Sequence record: NC_052659.1
Strand: one strand, 5' to 3'
Origin: Escherichia phage nieznany
Length of the DNA: 64,000 bases
Shown: piece by piece, positions 12,303 through 41,272 of the stretch
Layout of the letters: each line of letters opens with the position of its first letter
Position numbering within the stretch: the stretch's first letter is position 1
Program-made: the position numbers and the translations under genes
The notes under the pieces: generated by a model
Seen by the model: the letters and a program-made list of their open reading frames with translations, nothing else
What the model was told of the DNA's origin: nothing
Databases searched by the model: none

Positions 12303-12769
12303 ATTTTGCAGGATATGAACCTGTAGATCTTATTAATGGTGAGGGAGTTAGGTGCTCCCTCTGGGTTAGTGGTTGTAGCCACGGTTGTCGTGGCTGTTTT
12401 AACCAAAAAGCCTGGTCTTATTCTTATGGGAAACCGTTTACTGACGAAAATGTAGAGCAAGTTTTAAAAGATTTGTCAAGACCATTTGTAAAAGGTTTAA
12501 CAATTTTAGGAGGAGAACCATTAGATCCGCAGAATATTCACAATGTTAAAAGCCTTATAGAAAAGGTTAGAGACGTTTATGGGTCAAGCAAAGATATAAT
12601 GGTGTATACAGGATATACTTTTGAGGAAGTGCCTTTGTATATTAAAAATCTTGTTGACATTATTGTAGACGGAAAGTACGAAATAAACAATCCAACTACA
12701 AAACCTTTCAGAGGGTCAGATAATCAAAGATTATGGACCAAAACGGCAAGTGGTTGGCAATCAGATTAA
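12299..12769 (+). CDS. nrdG: anaerobic RNR activating protein NrdG (radical SAM)
   Basis: CSHGCRGCFN radical-SAM cysteine motif; directly downstream of nrdD; TTG start. Confidence 0.8.
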   Translation: MNFAGYEPVDLINGEGVRCSLWVSGCSHGCRGCFNQKAWSYSYGKPFTDENVEQVLKDLSRPFVKGLTILGGEPLDPQNIHNVKSLIEKVRDVYGSSKDIMVYTGYTFEEVPLYIKNLVDIIVDGKYEINNPTTKPFRGSDNQRLWTKTASGWQSD

Positions 12770-12782
12770 CTTAGGAGGTTTC

Positions 12783-12974
12783 ATGGTTACATATTTTGCT
12801 GTAGGGGATAGAGTAGGGACGGCAGGAGAACTTTTGAAGAACAGTGATCGGGACGTTAAGGACATTCTTGCAACCCTTGTGGATATTTTACAAAGAAAAG
12901 AGTTGCTTTCTGATCGAGATGTTGCTAAATTACTTGATATCGGAGGAGATGAACTTCAAAGACTTCCATTTTAA
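12783..12974 (+). CDS. hypothetical protein (63 aa)
   Basis: ATG 12783 with TTAGGAGG SD (track ORF begins at 12750). Confidence 0.4.
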   Translation: MVTYFAVGDRVGTAGELLKNSDRDVKDILATLVDILQRKELLSDRDVAKLLDIGGDELQRLPF

Positions 12975-35904: not shown

Positions 35905-36123
35905 ATGCGTAAATTAGTGAGCTTTAATGTTTCAATTCTTGTTGATGAACAAAATGAAGATGTTATTAAAGGTCTTGCAAATAAGATTGCAGGTGGAATG
36001 ACGGAAGCTGAAGTGTGGGAAGAATGTGCTCGACTTTATGAGGAAGGTGTTATTGAGGTCTTGGGGGATGAGATTAATATGGACGATGTTGTAAAAGTAA
36101 CTGTGGAGCGTATCAATGACTAA
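35905..36123 (+). CDS. hypothetical acidic protein (72 aa)
   Basis: TAAGGAG SD. Confidence 0.45.
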   Translation: MRKLVSFNVSILVDEQNEDVIKGLANKIAGGMTEAEVWEECARLYEEGVIEVLGDEINMDDVVKVTVERIND

Positions 36124-36709
36124 ATCAAAACAAATCAATATTGCCAAAGAAATTCTTACCGTATTAAAGATCGCTGATCCTAATTCTGTCTTGGCTGGCG
36201 GTGCTGTTCGTGATTGGCGTATTCTTGATATTGCTGGACGTGATCTGGATTTCTATACATCCCTTCCTGCACATCGGACTGAAGAACAAATACAAGGATT
36301 AATTGCATCTGCTTTAATGGGAACCAATATTCGTAAACTAGGAAACAAAGAGGCTTCTGACAATTATGAAGGTGTTACTGGTCTTAAACACGTTTTTGAG
36401 TTTGAACGTGATGGTCAGCTTTGCAACCTTATGATTATGGAACCAAGCGTAATGACAACCTTTCTAAATGAGTTCGATCTGTCCATCTGCCAGGCTGCAT
36501 TTGATGGGAAGGACTGTTATTATTCTAAAGATTTTGAAACAACCTTGGAAACAGGGATCTGCTTCTTGCACAAAGATGTTAGAGAAGATGCCAAACATGT
36601 TATTAAAATTGCTACACGTTTCCCATATCTTCGTTTTGTGAAAGAGGTTAAGGTTCCACGTCCACCTCAAGTAGATACCAGATTGGAAGAAGATGATATT
36701 CCTTGGTAA
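36116..36709 (+). CDS. minimal Pol-beta-superfamily nucleotidyltransferase (CCA-adding-enzyme-like head domain)
   Basis: LAGGAVRDWRILDIAGRDLDFY carries the GGxVRD...DxD signature of class II tRNA nucleotidyltransferase/poly(A) polymerase heads; C-terminus EEDDIPW. Confidence 0.55.
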   Translation: MTKSKQINIAKEILTVLKIADPNSVLAGGAVRDWRILDIAGRDLDFYTSLPAHRTEEQIQGLIASALMGTNIRKLGNKEASDNYEGVTGLKHVFEFERDGQLCNLMIMEPSVMTTFLNEFDLSICQAAFDGKDCYYSKDFETTLETGICFLHKDVREDAKHVIKIATRFPYLRFVKEVKVPRPPQVDTRLEEDDIPW

Positions 36710-36754: not shown

Positions 36755-37147
36755 ATGACTGAACGTTCTAAGATAGCTGTTGAAACTGTTTATGGAAACT
36801 ATACCAGTTTGACACTAGTTGAGAAAAATGTTGTAGGTCTTGACAACTCTTTTTATTTTCAAATTTTGGTTATTCAAGGTGGAAACAAGAAGCTAACTGC
36901 TCGTGTCGAAACATCTGAAATAATTGAAACCACTGTTACAAACAAAGAATTCATTTCACTGCAAGATACAATCCGAAACGTTATAGACGAAGAAGGCAAA
37001 GCTGCCACAATTAAACTCGGAGGTTTCCCAGTGCAAATAGTTCATTTTCCTAATGGTGAAATTGGAGTTGGAATAGGTAAAGGTAAATACCTGTTAGAGC
37101 AAGATGATATGGAAAGACTCCGCTCTTTCTGTGCAAAATTAATGTAA
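36755..37147 (+). CDS. hypothetical protein (130 aa)
   Basis: ORF without an obvious SD, possibly leaderless. Confidence 0.4.
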   Translation: MTERSKIAVETVYGNYTSLTLVEKNVVGLDNSFYFQILVIQGGNKKLTARVETSEIIETTVTNKEFISLQDTIRNVIDEEGKAATIKLGGFPVQIVHFPNGEIGVGIGKGKYLLEQDDMERLRSFCAKLM

Positions 37148-37163
37148 TGTAGAGGAGATAATA

Positions 37164-38096
37164 ATGTCCGTAATTAATACTGAAACTGATCGTAAAGGCA
37201 AAACCGTAACTTATGCAACTGGTATCGTAGACTACGTCAAACTGGATAAATTCGCTGAACCTAAAACTTTTCATTGGGAAGGAAAAACGATTGTTTCAAC
37301 TCACCGAGCCTCTCTTGTTCTGAAAGAGAAAGGTGCTAAACCAGATGAGAAAGGTGTTTGGATTTCTCTTGGTGACATTGAACTGAAAGAAGGTTATGAA
37401 AACCTGCAAGTCAAAGAAGGTGATAATTGGATCACTATTGAAAAAGGTGTAGAAGTAAGTATTGATATTGATCGCGTTGATAATAAAGGCGGTAAAACTT
37501 ACTACAATACTAAAAAATCTCGTATTACAGTATTGTCTACCGATGGTGTTCAGAAGTCTAACAAATCTTCTGGCAATAAAGGTTCCAACGATGCTGCTCC
37601 TAAGCAGTCCTATAAAAAACGTGATACTGTAGGTCTGGAAACTGGTCACGCAGTAAATGGTGCACTGGAACTGATTCGTAATGGTGTTAAAGGCGATGCT
37701 TTCGATATCGCTGGGGTTGTTCAATCTGCAACTGTCACGCTGAAATCTGAAATTGCTGAATCTCGTGGCGTTGATATTAATGATTATGATCTTGGGGCAT
37801 CTGTTGGTCACGCTATTCTCAATGCTTGTAAAGACCATACCATTAAGACTGTCTCTGTAGAAGATCTGATTGATTCTGCTCGTAAAGTTCTGGCTCTGTC
37901 TGATAAAGTTGCTGCTGCCATTCGTGGTTCCGCAGAACAGCCTAAGAAAGAAGAGAAGAAAGAAGTTAAGAAACCTGAACCACAACCAGAACCAACTCCA
38001 AGTAATCAAGAAGAACCTCCAATGGACTTCGACGATGATATTCCATTTGCCCCTATTGGACTGCAATATGGTCGAAACTTCCTGCATTGCTTCTAA
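37164..38096 (+). CDS. single-stranded DNA-binding protein (T7 gp2.5-like) with SSB-type acidic tail
   Basis: gp2.5-like N-terminus, Gly/Lys-rich linker, acidic tail ..EEPPMDFDDDIPF identical in style to the bacterial SSB C-terminus, followed by a 15-aa extension; GAGGAG SD. Confidence 0.6.
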   Translation: MSVINTETDRKGKTVTYATGIVDYVKLDKFAEPKTFHWEGKTIVSTHRASLVLKEKGAKPDEKGVWISLGDIELKEGYENLQVKEGDNWITIEKGVEVSIDIDRVDNKGGKTYYNTKKSRITVLSTDGVQKSNKSSGNKGSNDAAPKQSYKKRDTVGLETGHAVNGALELIRNGVKGDAFDIAGVVQSATVTLKSEIAESRGVDINDYDLGASVGHAILNACKDHTIKTVSVEDLIDSARKVLALSDKVAAAIRGSAEQPKKEEKKEVKKPEPQPEPTPSNQEEPPMDFDDDIPFAPIGLQYGRNFLHCF

Positions 38097-38562
38097 GGTT
38101 TGTTTCAAGTGTGGGGTGTTAAAGCCCCTCACTGAATTTTACAAACATAAAGCTATGGCTGACGGTCACGTCAATAAATGCAAGGAATGTAATAAGAAAG
38201 ATGTTAAACAGAATCGTAAAGATAAATCTGAATATTACAAAGAGTATGATAAAAACAGAGATCAGACCCCAGAGCGCAAAGCTTTGAAAGAGGCTTACGC
38301 AAAAGGGAAAGGTAAAAATAAGGCCAATGAAGCTAAGAAACGTTACATCGAAAAGAATCCGAAAAAACGTTCTGCTCATATAGCTGTAGGTAACGCACTC
38401 CGAGATGGAAAGTTAGTAAAACAACCTTGCCAAGTGTGTGGGTCTGTTGATGTTCATGCTCATCATTGTGATTATGATAAACCGTTAGATGTTCTATGGC
38501 TGTGTCCTCTACACCATGAGGCTTGGCATCAAGAACATGGTGAAGGATTGAACGCTGAATAA
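38068..38562 (+). CDS. HNH endonuclease (free-standing homing-endonuclease type)
   Basis: CQVCGSVDVHAHHCDYDKPLDVLWLCPLHHEAWH is a canonical HNH/zinc-finger core; likely start ATG 38068 overlapping the 3' end of the SSB ORF. Confidence 0.7.
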   Translation: MVETSCIASKVCFKCGVLKPLTEFYKHKAMADGHVNKCKECNKKDVKQNRKDKSEYYKEYDKNRDQTPERKALKEAYAKGKGKNKANEAKKRYIEKNPKKRSAHIAVGNALRDGKLVKQPCQVCGSVDVHAHHCDYDKPLDVLWLCPLHHEAWHQEHGEGLNAE

Positions 38563-38569
38563 AAGAAAA

Positions 38570-38595
38570 GGGAACCTTTACGGGTTCCCTTTTTT
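38570..38595. terminator. bidirectional rho-independent terminator at the convergence point
   Basis: GGGAACC-TTTACG-GGTTCCC hairpin flanked by an A-tract upstream and TTTTTT downstream; sits between the last rightward gene and the last leftward gene. Confidence 0.65.
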
Positions 38596-38596
38596 A

Positions 38597-41272
38597 TTAG
38601 TCGTAATATTTCAAACCTGTAATGAACTTCGATCCCCAATCCGCACTTGCGGCGGTGAACGTCAACATCCAAGTTGTAGCTGTACCAGTGAAGACCTCTC
38701 GTTGCACAGTACCATCAGTGTGGTAAATGTCCACGCCAGTATGTCCATTCTTAGGAATAGTGAAGGTAACAGCACTGGTAGTGTCTCGTGCATAAGAACA
38801 AACAAATGGTGTCCCCGCCCAAACTGGATTTGTCATATCACCCATCTCAAGCTGTGGAACCCAAGCAATAAGACCTGCCGTACCATCTCCTGCGAAAGTG
38901 TCTGATCCACTTGCATTCAAAGCTATAATCTCATAGGTTATAGATGCTTGTTTGGCAACTGTCACTTTGTGTAGAATTACACGATACCAACCATTCCCCA
39001 TATCGATTATGTTTGCATCTGCACCTGTAAATGTTCCAGCTACAAGATCATAAGTCCCTTCGTTAATCTCATCTCCTGAAGTCAATTTGAGTTTCACTTT
39101 AGTGATCCCGTCTGGCTTCAAGAATACGGATGCCGCCCAGTGCTTACCTGCTGTAATATCAGAAGCTGTATTCACTGCTGATAAAATATGTTGTCCTGAA
39201 GTTGTAGAAGGTGTTAACTTGTAAGTGTTAGCCGTAGTTCCAACCGGAGAGTTGATTGTTGATGCTGTGACTGTCAAGTTCGTCTTCAACCACGGGGAAG
39301 CTGTTGTCAAGTTATTGTTGATAAAGATATGTGTACGGTTGGCTGCTACAACACGTCTACCTTGTGGAGTTGTACCAACATATTCTAAAGGTGCTACGGG
39401 AGCAGAACTCTCTGTAGGTACAAGGATATCTCCAGAAGCCCTGGCATAACGGTTACTCCTGTTGACCTTTACATCCGTTGGAATAGTTTCTTGCGTCAAA
39501 TCATAGTCCATCACAATCACCACAGCATTCACTGCGAGATAAGAACTATCTTCGGCAGTTACCACACCTTGATAAGTTGCTCTACAACCGATACGACAAT
39601 CCCCATCAGCAACCGCTGTAATAACGCCTGTAACGGGGTCAACTGTTGCTACCGTAGGGTCATTAGAGAAATACTCAACAACCATACCAGGTAAGCTTGC
39701 TGCTCCTGTTGGCGTTATTTCTGCTACCATTGTTTGTGTTGTTCCTACATCCATCGCAGATAAGCTAGGGGTGTAAACGCTCAATGTTGAAGCATATCCT
39801 CCAGAGGTATCTGATAAAGTTGTTCCTTCAGCGTTTAAGGCTGTCATACCTGCATCAAAACCACCTTCTGCATGGAAAGTCATTAAACCAGTAGATGATA
39901 TTGTCATGTTTGCAGGGGCAGAAGAAGTGTATTTAATATTGAAAAGTTTACCTCCTTCTGGGCTAACAGAATGTGTCAACTGTTTAGTTCCACCTACAAT
40001 ACAAATTCCTAAAGAATCTGTAGTTAAGTCAGTTGCCAGAATATCACCCGTAATCACGGAGCTTGCTATTGGTGTGAATTTATTATAGTTTAGACCGCTA
40101 TTGAACAGATACGAGGCTTTCCCATCTTTCCAAATACCGGAATAATACATATCTCCATTATAAACGAAAAAGGTTCCTTGATAACCTAATTGGTTAGTAA
40201 CATCCATATTCAGCGTATGAACGCTTGTGAGCTTGTTTATATCCCAGGAACCCACTCCTTCAGGTTTAACTGGTTTTCCCACTTGAAGTGGATCTCCGCT
40301 CGCAGAATCATACCCCAAACCTAAGTTTGCAGTGTAGTTCTTACCAATAGCCCACAAGGAATTATTGATCCCAACGAAAAAAGAGTGGCGGCTTGGTGGA
40401 AATTTCCATGTTGAGAAACCTGCTGCAAAGGTATTCAGTTTAGTATAGGTTGTTTCTGTATTAGATCTAACATATAAGTAGTTTACTGCACCCGTGCCAC
40501 CGGAGGTATCTCCTACAACTATTGTCTGGGAAACTGTATTGATGTAATCTTTGACATACACTGTTTCAGTAGCGGATATCTTGGCATTGACAAAAGCTGT
40601 TGTTGTGTTATTATTACCTGCTAAACCTTTACTAGCTCCACAAACACGCAAGGTTCCCACATTGTTGACATAAGAGCATTGGTTGTAACCTGCATCAAAA
40701 GCAACTGCTGCACTTGTTATCTGACGAGGAGTAGAAACTTCGTTAGTAGTACTTGCACCTAAACTGCCTACTGTGTTTTGACCAGATCCGTAAAGAACAC
40801 CACTATTCATTAACCAGAGAGTGTTGTTATATCCTCCCTTAACCTCTTTAAGATTGGCTAAAGAGATAGTCCCTGTTATTACAGATGGAAAGCTGGTCCA
40901 AGTAGTTACACATGCGTCCGTACCACCTGCTGCTATAGATCCTACCAATCCTGCTGTCAATCCTGAATATTGCCATCCCCCACTGTTAGTTTTAATAACA
41001 AAACAACGATCTGCGGTAAACACATCCGCTACTACAGTAGAAGCTAAGTGGAAATTATTGAATCGTGCACTACGAGTTCCATCTGCAATCTCACCAAAAA
41101 GGTTTGCGCCTTGAGTAAACAATCTACCATCATTAAGCAAAATTGCTAAACTGCTGTTAGAATTACCAGCATTATCTGGGTAATCTAAAGTGATTACTTT
41201 TTTAACAATACCTGCTGGCAGAGGAACGACACCAGTGCTGGTCATAATAGTAAATATTGGAATTGGAAACAT
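38597..41272 (-). CDS. tail fibre protein (891 aa) with Ig-like segment
   Basis: G/T/S/N-rich beta composition, internal BIG2-like stretch (VATVDPVTGVITAVADGDCRI), last gene of the structural operon. Confidence 0.5.
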   Translation of the reverse strand: MFPIPIFTIMTSTGVVPLPAGIVKKVITLDYPDNAGNSNSSLAILLNDGRLFTQGANLFGEIADGTRSARFNNFHLASTVVADVFTADRCFVIKTNSGGWQYSGLTAGLVGSIAAGGTDACVTTWTSFPSVITGTISLANLKEVKGGYNNTLWLMNSGVLYGSGQNTVGSLGASTTNEVSTPRQITSAAVAFDAGYNQCSYVNNVGTLRVCGASKGLAGNNNTTTAFVNAKISATETVYVKDYINTVSQTIVVGDTSGGTGAVNYLYVRSNTETTYTKLNTFAAGFSTWKFPPSRHSFFVGINNSLWAIGKNYTANLGLGYDSASGDPLQVGKPVKPEGVGSWDINKLTSVHTLNMDVTNQLGYQGTFFVYNGDMYYSGIWKDGKASYLFNSGLNYNKFTPIASSVITGDILATDLTTDSLGICIVGGTKQLTHSVSPEGGKLFNIKYTSSAPANMTISSTGLMTFHAEGGFDAGMTALNAEGTTLSDTSGGYASTLSVYTPSLSAMDVGTTQTMVAEITPTGAASLPGMVVEYFSNDPTVATVDPVTGVITAVADGDCRIGCRATYQGVVTAEDSSYLAVNAVVIVMDYDLTQETIPTDVKVNRSNRYARASGDILVPTESSAPVAPLEYVGTTPQGRRVVAANRTHIFINNNLTTASPWLKTNLTVTASTINSPVGTTANTYKLTPSTTSGQHILSAVNTASDITAGKHWAASVFLKPDGITKVKLKLTSGDEINEGTYDLVAGTFTGADANIIDMGNGWYRVILHKVTVAKQASITYEIIALNASGSDTFAGDGTAGLIAWVPQLEMGDMTNPVWAGTPFVCSYARDTTSAVTFTIPKNGHTGVDIYHTDGTVQREVFTGTATTWMLTFTAASADWGSKFITGLKYYD

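What the first reader, a model, noticed from the sequence alone, without database searches (positions are those of the whole stretch)
38022..38562. SSB acidic tail DFDDDIPF is internal, followed by a 15-aa extension overlapped by an HNH endonuclease gene
In bacterial SSB and T7 gp2.5 the terminal aromatic residue of the acidic tail is essential for partner binding. Here the canonical DFDDDIPF is followed in frame by APIGLQYGRNFLHCF before the stop at 38096, and the start of an HNH endonuclease gene (ATG 38068) lies inside this extension. This suggests a homing endonuclease gene invaded the 3' end of the SSB gene and rewrote its terminus (the new end is again Phe), or a sequence error or recoding event at 38048.
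Basis: seen in the sequence. Interest (0 to 1): 0.5.

Follow-up and report, generated by a model that had tools for sequence, protein, structure and literature searches.

The report
Capped SSB tail with homing endonuclease
A selfish endonuclease gene has landed on the very end of this phage's DNA-binding (SSB) gene, and it brought a 15-residue peptide that buries the normally terminal partner-binding tip; that same peptide turns out to be a conserved, apparently undescribed "cap" on the replication proteins of many unrelated phages.

Summary
ORF 37164-38096 ends ...PPMDFDDDIPF-APIGLQYGRNFLHCF*, and an HNH gene (38068-38562, +1 frame) starts inside the extension.

The window is a phAPEC8-like Phapecoctavirus. 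Most relatives end the SSB at IPF* and have no HNH. The window is nearly identical to those phages on both flanks and differs by one cassette, about 38048-38565, that holds cap plus HNH. Five relatives keep the cap next to an in-frame HNH deletion remnant. The same cap-plus-HNH on/off pattern recurs in T1-like phages (ESh4 versus pSf-1).

The HNH family is a specialist of this site. In at least 73 of 80 metagenomic loci it lies just downstream of a gene ending in an acidic ..DDIPF tip. It follows 67 of 94 DDIPFN* ends and 0 of 111 DDDIPF* ends.

The extension is not insertion junk. [AS]P[IVL]GLQY plus 7-9 hydrophobic residues caps the tips of at least five unrelated SSB types and of primase/helicases. 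Most of these have no HNH nearby. Identical peptides are written in very different codons, which indicates purifying selection on the peptide. No paper with the motif was found.

So the homing-endonuclease reading is partly right. The cap is a pre-existing module that travels with the endonuclease here, and its function is unknown.

The parts
37164..38096 (+). SSB-like gene, 310 aa. It has a beta-rich OB-like N-domain (aa 1-125), a four-helix domain (aa 156-253), a disordered linker, the acidic tip and the cap. A strong Shine-Dalgarno sequence (GAGGAG) lies upstream.
   Evidence: Searches give the ORF. It matches phrog_4477 (E 3e-97). Only the tail matches SSB phrogs and NCBIfam PRK09010, and there is no Pfam hit. 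The AF2 model has pLDDT 81.9. Foldseek finds only weak OB-fold hits (2k75 prob 1.0, none with E<1e-3).
38022..38048 (+). Acidic tip MDFDDDIPF, the SSB-Ct motif, here internal to the protein. The Phe codon is TTT in all alleles that carry a cap or an HNH, and TTC in the HNH-less alleles.
38049..38096 (+). The 'cap': 15 codons APIGLQYGRNFLHCF plus TAA. It belongs to the conserved family [AS]P[IVL]GLQY-x(7-9).
38068..38562 (+). HNH endonuclease gene, 164 aa. It has an N-terminal CxxC...CxxC zinc ribbon (aa 12-41), a helical linker, and a C-terminal Zn-HNH domain (C121, C124, H132, H133, D135, C146, H150, H154 are invariant). It has no Shine-Dalgarno sequence and no promoter of its own.
38068..38096 (+). 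The 29-nt overlap. The HNH leader MVETSCIAS is overprinted in the +1 frame on the second half of the cap. The invariant HNH Lys codon (AAG) overlaps the SSB stop (TC-TAA-G).
38048..38565 (+). The mobile cassette (cap plus HNH) that distinguishes the window from ev052- and phAPEC8-type genomes. The left edge lies between 38042 and 38048, and the right edge between 38558 and 38572.
   Evidence: SNP map; alignments.
38566..38593 (.). Hairpin terminator shared by the SSB/HNH transcript and the convergent tail-fibre gene. It is of the phAPEC8 type, not the ZCKP1 or Mt1B1 type.

Best explanation
The HNH gene is a free-standing homing endonuclease of a large family whose niche is the 3' end of genes encoding an SSB-type acidic tip (...DDIPF).

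Shown:
- The cassette is present or absent at one locus in near-identical phages.
- It decays by internal deletion.
- It sits at the same place behind unrelated genes in unrelated phages.

Inferred:
- The enzyme cuts cassette-free genomes at or near the junction of the Phe codon and the stop codon. That DNA is conserved because the tip is.
- Repair from a co-infecting cassette-bearing genome copies the cassette in.

In this window the cassette starts inside the Phe codon and replaces the stop codon with a 15-codon cap.
- Shown: the cap contains the HNH start codon, the ATG within CAA-TAT-GGT (Gln-Tyr-Gly). The HNH has no promoter or Shine-Dalgarno sequence of its own.
- Inferred: the HNH is made at a low level by ribosomes that have just translated the highly expressed ssb. 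The cap also destroys the Phe-codon/stop target, which would make the carrier immune to its own enzyme.

The cap was not invented by this insertion. It is an older peptide module that caps the tips of many phage SSBs and primase/helicases and is kept by purifying selection even where no HNH is present. The cassette picked it up and carries it by co-conversion.

The SSB is therefore most likely made with an internal DFDDDIPF. The cap's peptide-level role is inferred, not shown. The most likely role is to change what the tip binds, either by masking the host-type C-terminal Phe carboxylate or by creating a composite motif.
For: 1. Polymorphism and boundaries. There are four allelic states in Phapecoctavirus.
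- IPF* with no HNH: at least 30 records.
- Cap plus HNH: the window, ZCKP1, Mt1B1_P17 and PsgM04F.
- Cap plus an in-frame HNH remnant, MVETSCIASKVCFKC[VM]RLNAE*: DE16, Ec-G1, 536P1, DIJ07P2 and ECO340P2.
- IPF* followed by a recombinant HNH that starts at the stop codon: AV125, nepoznato, phiWec188 and phiWec190.
Within the SSB gene the window differs from ev052 at one site in the seven-genome alignment, and the downstream tail-fibre region is of the ev052 type. Only 38048-38565 stands out.

2. Independent replicate. T1-like ESh4 has ...DFDDDIPF+ASVGLQYGKHRIYAL* overlapped by an HNH of the same family. Its relative pSf-1 ends CCT TTC TGA TC with neither cap nor HNH. The sequence ATTCC[A/T]TTCTGATC is shared with ev052.

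3. Family niche.
- There are at least 527 relatives in IMG/VR.
- In 73 of the best 80 loci the upstream same-strand ORF ends in an acidic ..PF tip, and four more end DDDDFGIPF.
- The HNH follows 67 of 94 DDIPFN* ends, 0 of 111 DDDIPF* ends and 4 of 34 capped ends.
- It also follows the capped tip of the GAP31 primase/helicase.

4. The cap is an independent, selected module.
- 28 of 120 rV5-type SSB cluster representatives carry it, scattered across the range of similarity to the window.
- All 43 IMG/VR hits to PFAPIGLQY follow an acidic tip, on at least five unrelated protein types.
- PD06, PVP-SE1, KB57, K359 and 1.149.O have the cap without an HNH.
- Identical peptides use different codons, for example RSILNCM written as CGC TCA ATT CTT AAC TGC ATG or as AGA AGT ATA TTG AAT TGC ATG.
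- pN/pS is about 0.5 in the SSB frame, against 0.9 in the +1 frame and 1.5-1.8 in the +2 frame.

5. Nuclease identity. The invariant residues are those of a Zn-HNH nuclease. The AF2 model has pLDDT 94.4, and the best PDB neighbours of the C-terminal domain are beta-beta-alpha-Me nucleases (Hpy99I prob 0.96, Cap5, T5 SciA).

6. Expression. There is no promoter-like site between ssb and the HNH, and the only terminator lies after the HNH. The 13 nt upstream of the HNH ATG read ATTGGACTGCAAT, against GAGGAG for ssb.
Against: - No cleavage or inheritance data exist, so homing is inferred from distribution only.
- The association counts are not corrected for shared ancestry.
- Most capped SSBs have no HNH and most HNH-adjacent tips have no cap, so the two are separable and the link in this window could be historical accident.
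- The immunity idea does not explain why the cap sequence itself is conserved.
- AF2 gives the cap low confidence (about 52) and does not dock it anywhere.
- Foldseek E-values for the HNH model are all above 0.1.
- The hairpin that encloses the HNH AUG (z = -2.2) is not conserved in GAP31 or PVP-SE1.
- If the terminal Phe carboxylate is as essential here as in E. coli SSB (my own knowledge of the SSB-Ct literature), capped SSBs should be crippled. Yet these phages are viable isolates.
Confidence: 0.7

Rival explanations
1. The cap is simply the native C-terminus of this SSB lineage. The HNH inserted later behind an already capped gene, and the uncapped phAPEC8-type allele is the derived state.
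For: Caps without an HNH are common and are fixed in related genera such as Justusliebigvirus PD06, Seunavirus PVP-SE1 and Mydovirus KB57. The conserved part of the HNH begins exactly at the cap's stop codon.
Against: All five capped, HNH-less Phapecoctavirus alleles still carry HNH remnants. No capped allele free of remnants was seen in that genus. The window is ev052-like on both flanks and differs by cap plus HNH as one block. The same joint presence or absence is seen in ESh4 versus pSf-1.
Confidence: 0.1
2. The 'HNH' is not selfish. It is a working partner of SSB, for example an endonuclease VII-like structure-specific nuclease of replication or recombination, and it is kept next to ssb for co-expression.
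For: The gene lies next to tip-encoding genes in at least 73 of 80 loci. It matches 'endonuclease VII' phrogs weakly (E 2e-9 and 1e-6). It is co-transcribed with ssb.
Against: It is absent from most near-identical Phapecoctavirus and Hanrivervirus genomes. Deletion remnants are tolerated. It also occurs behind a primase/helicase. 0 of 111 ordinary DDDIPF* genes have it. Presence by patchy gain and loss is the signature of a mobile gene.
Confidence: 0.12
3. The cap is a removable pro-peptide. A host or phage protease trims it (and the single Asn, Ser or Lys of IPFN-type ends) to regenerate a free ...IPF-COOH. Selection would then act on cleavability.
For: This would reconcile the strong conservation of DFDDDIPF with its internal position. 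A precise stop codon after Phe cannot arise from GCN by one mutation, so selection would have to keep the whole cap processable (reasoning). The first seven residues next to the Phe are the most conserved part.
Against: I could not identify any known protease site. No protease gene is linked. A Phe-Ala-Pro junction is a poor substrate for most peptidases (my own knowledge). Nothing in the tools tests this.
Confidence: 0.2
4. The extension is a sequencing or assembly error, or a programmed recoding event at 38048.
For: None beyond the oddity of an internal tip.
Against: The same reading occurs in at least nine independent genomes with synonymous substitutions. There is no slippery heptamer. There is no Rfam hit and no room for an intron. 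The HNH-less relatives differ by a 514-nt block, not by one base.
Confidence: 0.01

Closest known systems
Free-standing HNH homing endonucleases of phages (T4 MobE and other Mob/Seg genes; 'intronless homing' and marker exclusion; PMC2790892, PMC2988022)
   Same: It is a small HNH gene lying between conserved genes. Its distribution among close relatives is patchy, and flanking DNA is carried along. The likely target lies in a highly conserved coding sequence.
   Different: Here the gene overlaps the 3' end of its neighbour, starts inside it, and adds 15 residues to the neighbour's protein. The family appears to be tied to one short peptide-coding motif that occurs in many unrelated genes, not to one gene.
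mobE insertion in Aeromonas phage Aeh1 nrdA, where sequences derived from the mobile element became part of the host protein (PMC3045599)
   Same: Codons that travel with a homing endonuclease end up in the product of an essential replication-related gene.
   Different: No gene is split here, and the added peptide is a widespread conserved module also found without any endonuclease.
F-CphI of cyanophage S-PM2, a homing endonuclease with an endonuclease VII-type catalytic motif (PMC6083498)
   Same: Both are free-standing phage homing endonucleases that resemble endonuclease VII and HNH nucleases rather than the classical families. The window protein matches 'endonuclease VII' phrogs weakly.
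   Different: No direct sequence comparison was made, and the genomic niche differs (psbA region versus the SSB tail).
The SSB C-terminal tip (SSB-Ct, DDDIPF) of E. coli SSB and the acidic Phe-terminated tails of T7 gp2.5 and gp4
   Same: The tip MDFDDDIPF aligns with the C-terminal end of the NCBIfam SSB model PRK09010 and contains the conserved DDDIPF hexapeptide (PMC5872125). As in T7 (my own knowledge), both the SSB and the primase/helicase of rV5-like phages carry such tails.
   Different: In the known systems the Phe is the last residue and its carboxylate is part of the binding determinant (my own knowledge). Here 15 residues follow it. No paper with the cap motif was found.

Membership tests
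Bacterial-type SSB with SSB-Ct tip | OB-fold ssDNA-binding domain (Pfam SSB PF00436) | tested here: inconclusive
   There is no Pfam hit. The protein matches phrog_4477, which has unknown function. AF2 gives a beta-rich N-domain whose best PDB neighbours are OB folds, but none has E<1e-3.
Bacterial-type SSB with SSB-Ct tip | Disordered linker followed by the acidic tip D-F-D-D-D-I-P-F | tested here: met
   Residues 254-295 are disordered in the AF2 model. The tip aligns to the end of PRK09010 (E 7.8e-5) and to SSB phrogs.
Bacterial-type SSB with SSB-Ct tip | The tip Phe is the C-terminal residue | tested here: not met
   Fifteen residues follow it. Relatives without the cassette do meet this criterion.
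HNH (beta-beta-alpha-Me) nuclease | Catalytic His-His...Asp/Asn...His motif with zinc-binding Cys pairs | tested here: met
   C121, C124, H132, H133, D135, Y136, W144, C146, H150 and H154 are invariant in 45 homologues.
HNH (beta-beta-alpha-Me) nuclease | Beta-beta-alpha-Me fold | tested here: inconclusive
   The AF2 model has pLDDT 94.4, with strands 130-133 and 142-145 followed by helix 147-157. The nearest PDB matches are Hpy99I (prob 0.96), Cap5 and T5 SciA, but all have E>0.1. There is no Pfam or PDB sequence hit.
Free-standing homing endonuclease gene | Present or absent at the same locus in otherwise near-identical genomes, with degenerate copies | tested here: met
   for Phapecoctavirus; for Hanrivervirus.
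Free-standing homing endonuclease gene | Site-specific cleavage of the endonuclease-free allele, and resistance of the carrier allele | not testable with these tools
   The only indirect evidence is that the endonuclease-free alleles of two unrelated phages share ATTCC[A/T]TTCTGATC.
Free-standing homing endonuclease gene | Super-Mendelian inheritance in mixed infection | not testable with these tools
   This needs phage crosses.
Group I intron or intein carrying the endonuclease | Structured intron core or intein splicing blocks around the endonuclease ORF | tested here: not met
   Rfam finds nothing above E 0.48 in 37000-38800. The insert is 514 nt, of which 495 nt are the HNH ORF.
Programmed frameshift or readthrough | A stop codon or slippery site at the junction | tested here: not met
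   There is no stop after Phe in the window. The reading frame is continuous and conserved with synonymous changes.

The most novel reading that the evidence does not exclude
The [AS]P[IVL]GLQY...cap is a portable peptide module that rewrites the interaction code of the universal SSB-Ct tip. It would do this by masking the host-type C-terminal Phe or by creating a new composite ligand for a phage or host partner, possibly doubling as an allele resistant to tip-targeting endonucleases. It would be spread between unrelated phage replisome proteins by a homing endonuclease family that homes on the DNA encoding the tip itself.
Probability: 0.3. Interest if true: 0.8.

Novelty: new variant of a known kind. 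Interest (0 to 1): 0.64.

Why it matters
The SSB C-terminal tip is one of the best-studied protein-interaction hubs in bacteria, and a drug target. The accepted picture is that its last residue must be a free Phe. Here a whole class of phage SSBs and primase/helicases carries that tip internally, under a conserved cap.

Either the rule is broken, or the cap is removed, or phages deliberately switch the tip off or retarget it. Each outcome can be tested with peptides and isogenic phages that already exist as natural allele pairs.

The work also suggests that a short, functionally frozen peptide-coding motif can serve as a shared landing pad for a homing endonuclease family across unrelated genes and phage families. 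That would explain how a C-terminal module can hop between non-homologous proteins.

Tried and rejected
- Sequencing error or recoding: rejected on comparative data.
- Group I intron or known RNA: nothing found.
- Intramolecular docking of the cap: AF2 leaves it disordered at pLDDT about 52, so there is no support.
- Cap as a docking site for this HNH family: Vibrio phage K359 has a capped SSB and no family member anywhere in its 48 kb. This is a single case, so the idea is weakened but not excluded.
- Cap as a mere Shine-Dalgarno/ATG carrier for the HNH: rejected as the sole explanation. Caps of the ...QYP... class have no ATG, have no HNH, and are still conserved at the amino-acid level.
- Resemblance of ...IYAL caps to the ssrA tag, and of LQYPALL to clamp-binding motifs: considered by eye only. 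The YAL* ending is explained by the overlapping HNH start (T-ATG-CCx-TGT-AAG). The clamp-motif spacing does not fit. Neither was tested further.
- PDB sequence search with the HNH profile: no meaningful hit. Pfam: no hit for either protein.
- Bacterial genome scan for FAPIGLQY: 32 hits, about what chance predicts. Only 7 are real and follow DDIPF, all apparently on phage-like SSBs of Gammaproteobacteria-associated records.
- phmmer of the last 33 aa against 1.84 billion representatives: only 19 significant hits, because the query is short. The 18 retrieved sequences all carry the cap at the C-terminus.
- Literature: no paper contains APIGLQY, IPFAPIG or PIGLQY. No paper linking HNH genes to SSB tails was found.
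- RNA hairpin around the HNH AUG: modest z-score and not conserved, so kept only as a note.
Full report
**1. Observation**

- ORF 37164-38096 (+) encodes 310 aa ending ...NQEEPPMDFDDDIPF-APIGLQYGRNFLHCF*.
- The tip is 38022-38048, the 15 extra codons are 38049-38093, and the stop is 38094-38096.
- An ATG at 38068, in the +1 frame, opens a 164-aa ORF that ends at 38562 and overlaps the first ORF by 29 nt.
- ssb has a GAGGAG Shine-Dalgarno sequence. The second ORF has none (ATTGGACTGCAAT-ATG).
- No promoter-like site separates the two ORFs. The only terminator (38566-38593) follows the second one.

**2. Identity of the two genes**

The window is a phAPEC8-like Phapecoctavirus.

The 310-aa protein:
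- It has no Pfam hit and belongs to phrog_4477, which has unknown function.
- Only its last ~45 residues match SSB models.
- AF2 (pLDDT 81.9) predicts a beta-rich N-domain, a four-helix domain and a disordered C-terminal third.
- The best PDB neighbours of the N-domain are OB folds, but none is significant.
- 'SSB' is therefore reasonable but not proven.

The 164-aa protein:
- It matches phrog_2340 'endonuclease' (E 1.5e-48), and 'endonuclease VII' and 'HNH' phrogs weakly.
- It has about 1000 homologues.
- Two invariant Cys pairs form an N-terminal zinc ribbon.
- An invariant C..C...HH.DY...WLC...H...H block sits at the C-terminus.
- A confident AF2 model (pLDDT 94.4) has beta-beta-alpha-Me nucleases as the nearest solved neighbours of its C-terminal domain (Hpy99I, Cap5, T5 SciA). 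All have E>0.1.

**3. The locus is polymorphic, and cap plus HNH behave as one cassette**

Alignment of relatives shows four states.

| State | SSB end | HNH | Phages |
|---|---|---|---|
| A | 295 aa, ends CCA TTC TAA/TGA | none; short spacer, then terminator | phAPEC8, ev052, at least 30 records |
| B | cap | present | window, ZCKP1, Mt1B1_P17, and PsgM04F (81% identical) |
| C | cap | in-frame internal deletion leaving MVETSCIASKVCFKC[VM]RLNAE* | DE16, Ec-G1, 536P1, DIJ07P2, ECO340P2 |
| D | 295 aa, ends CCT TTT TGA | different 5' half; TTG start overlaps the stop | AV125, nepoznato, phiWec188, phiWec190 |

The SNP map gives the boundaries.
- The window is ev052-like throughout ssb and in the hypervariable tail-fibre gene downstream.
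- It differs from ev052 only between 38048 (third base of the Phe codon) and about 38565.
- No capped Phapecoctavirus allele lacks HNH remnants.

The same joint presence or absence occurs in T1-like phages.
- ESh4 has ...DFDDDIPF-ASVGLQYGKHRIYAL* overlapped by an HNH of this family.
- pSf-1, and by match coverage most of the 120 related records, lack the cap and the HNH; pSf-1, the one inspected, ends CCT TTC TGA TC.
- The endonuclease-free alleles of the two unrelated phages share ATTCC[A/T]TTCTGATC.

**4. The HNH family is a specialist of tip-encoding 3' ends**

IMG/VR holds at least 527 relatives. Results for the best 80 loci:
- In 73 loci the upstream same-strand ORF ends in an acidic ..D[IV]PF tip, and four more end DDDDFGIPF.
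- The upstream proteins differ widely in sequence and range from at least 86 to at least 367 aa.
- Of the 73 tips, 23 end at PF*, 39 carry exactly one extra residue (N 31, S 6, K 2), one carries four, and 10 carry long extensions, most of them cap-like.

Three pattern scans tested the association from the SSB side.

| SSB end scanned | Unique loci with an HNH-family ORF within 650 nt |
|---|---|
| DDIPFN* | 67 of 94 |
| DDDIPF* | 0 of 111 |
| capped (PFAPIGLQY) | 4 of 34 |

- Insertion of this family therefore goes with a rewritten SSB terminus far more often than chance would give. These counts are not corrected for shared ancestry.
- In GAP31 the same arrangement (tip, cap, overlapping HNH) sits on the primase/helicase.
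- Cultured examples include Ralstonia phage GP4 and Vibrio phage 207E34-1, both IPFN* plus spacer plus HNH.

**5. The cap is an independent, conserved peptide**

Distribution:
- Among 120 cluster representatives of the rV5-type SSB, 92 end in PF and 28 carry [AS]P[IVL]GL[QP]Y plus 7-10 residues. The capped ones are scattered from 99% down to 33% identity to the window protein.
- A DNA pattern for PFAPIGLQY found 43 IMG/VR loci, every one preceded by an acidic tip.
- The carriers include E. coli-like OB SSBs, T1-type SSBs, rV5-type SSBs, two further SSB-like types, and 691-aa primase/helicases.
- In most loci the next gene is not an HNH. In several of the methyltransferase-type loci it starts about 5-8 nt after the stop.
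- PD06, PVP-SE1, KB57, K359 and 1.149.O are isolates with a cap and no adjacent HNH.
- K359 has no family member anywhere in its genome.

Evidence for selection on the peptide:
- Codon tables show identical peptides written in different codons. One example is RSILNCM as CGC TCA ATT CTT AAC TGC ATG versus AGA AGT ATA TTG AAT TGC ATG. All differences among the window, PD06, DE16, Ec-G1 and PsgM04F are synonymous.
- For cap codons 8 to the end, which the search pattern did not constrain, pN/pS is 0.50-0.54 in the SSB frame. It is about 0.9 in the +1 frame, 1.5-1.8 in the +2 frame, 0.8-0.94 in the linker and 0.17-0.20 in the tip.

Restriction to phage-like sequences:
- In one genome each of 185,579 bacterial and archaeal species, only 7 real instances were found, all on phage-like SSBs.
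- In the 18 of 19 significant hits retrieved from 1.84 billion representative proteins, the cap is always at the C-terminus.

**6. How cap and HNH fit together**

In every locus with both cap and HNH:
- The HNH is in the +1 frame.
- Its invariant Lys codon overlaps the cap's stop (xxT-AAR).
- Its conserved part (K-x-C-F-K-C-G) begins there.
- Its start codon lies inside the cap, usually the ATG of CAA-TAT-GGN (Gln-Tyr-Gly).
- The HNH leader of 1-12 residues is variable. It is overprinted on a cap that is conserved in the other frame.

Caps without an HNH mostly read ...QY-P/R... and contain no ATG. The cap therefore came first, and the endonuclease exploits it.

**7. Interpretation**

The best-supported account is as follows.
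- A free-standing HNH homing endonuclease family targets the conserved DNA that encodes the SSB tip and its stop codon.
- In this window's cassette the stop is replaced by a pre-existing cap module.
- That module houses the HNH start, and would give low-level coupled translation from the ssb message.
- It removes the Phe-codon/stop junction, which would confer immunity.
- Cap and HNH move together by gene conversion, and the cap survives when the HNH decays.
- Cleavage, immunity and coupling are inferences.

What the cap does as a peptide is unknown.
- I favour a change in what the tip binds.
- A removable pro-peptide and a resistance allele against tip-targeting endonucleases are live alternatives.
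- A Vibrio phage group shows four different SSB ends among related genomes. These are IPF* alone; IPF* followed by a gene annotated 'endonuclease', not confirmed here as a member of this family; IPFN* plus HNH; and the cap alone. This underlines that the ssb 3' end is a hotspot.

**8. Comparison with known systems, and novelty**

- The endonuclease behaves like T4 Mob/Seg-type free-standing homing endonucleases (PMC2790892, PMC2988022).
- It resembles F-CphI in its endonuclease VII-like flavour (PMC6083498).
- The appended codons recall the mobE/nrdA case, where sequence derived from a mobile element became part of the host protein (PMC3045599).
- I found no paper containing the cap motif or describing HNH genes tied to SSB tails.
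- I rate the finding a new variant of a known kind. The cap is the part most likely to be truly new.

Noticed in passing
window 36116-36709 (+): The nucleotidyltransferase (CCA-adding/poly(A) polymerase-like) ORF ends ...RLEEDDIPW*, an SSB-Ct-like acidic tip with Trp in place of Phe. The tip is conserved in phAPEC8, AV125 (EEEDDIPW) and PsgM04F (DTDEDIPW) and is absent in PD06. This suggests that a third protein of the phage uses the same tip code.
   Followed up: partly
window 38572-39670, inside the tail-fibre gene 38597-41272 (-): The C-terminal ~1.1 kb of the convergent tail-fibre gene exists in at least three very different versions among phages that are otherwise 98-99% identical. The versions are window = ev052 = phAPEC8; ZCKP1; and Mt1B1/DE16/Ec-G1. 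This host-range cassette directly abuts the HNH cassette.
   Followed up: no
window 36115-36370: A block of about 25 linked SNPs inside the nucleotidyltransferase gene splits relatives into two types, window/phAPEC8/Mt1B1/DE16 versus ev052/ZCKP1/Ec-G1. This is a recombination mosaic.
   Followed up: no
L004 3469-3534 (DE16); L005 3463-3528 (Ec-G1): The HNH deletion remnants are in-frame mini-ORFs, MVETSCIASKVCFKC[VM]RLNAE*, that keep the first 15 and last 4 codons.
   Followed up: partly
loci L109-L186, L187-L306, L428, L429: Many SSBs next to this HNH family end ...DDIPF plus one residue (N, S or K). The stop is often part of TTAATTAA, and a second CCCTTTTAAT copy and a TATAAT-like box follow in the spacer. 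In the capped Vibrio alleles the stop is also followed by TTAATTAA. This may mark the cleavage or insertion site.
   Followed up: partly
window 38028-38076: A predicted RNA stem pairs UUCGAC (tip codons) with GUCGAA (just after the HNH AUG) and encloses the start codon. The region 38020-38140 folds with z = -2.2. The stem is kept in PD06 and not in GAP31 or PVP-SE1.
   Followed up: partly
L011 516-3060 (Cronobacter phage GAP31); L037, L055, L073: The primase/helicase of Vequintavirinae phages ends in an acidic tip plus cap (DFDNDTPF-APIGLQYANHAIYAL...DDDTPF-APIGLQYAKHAIYVI). This parallels the T7 gp4/gp2.5 pair of acidic tails. It is followed by HNH genes of two different families.
   Followed up: partly
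window 12687-12974 (+): A 95-aa ORF ends ...GGDELQRLPF*, a weaker tip-like ending.
   Followed up: no
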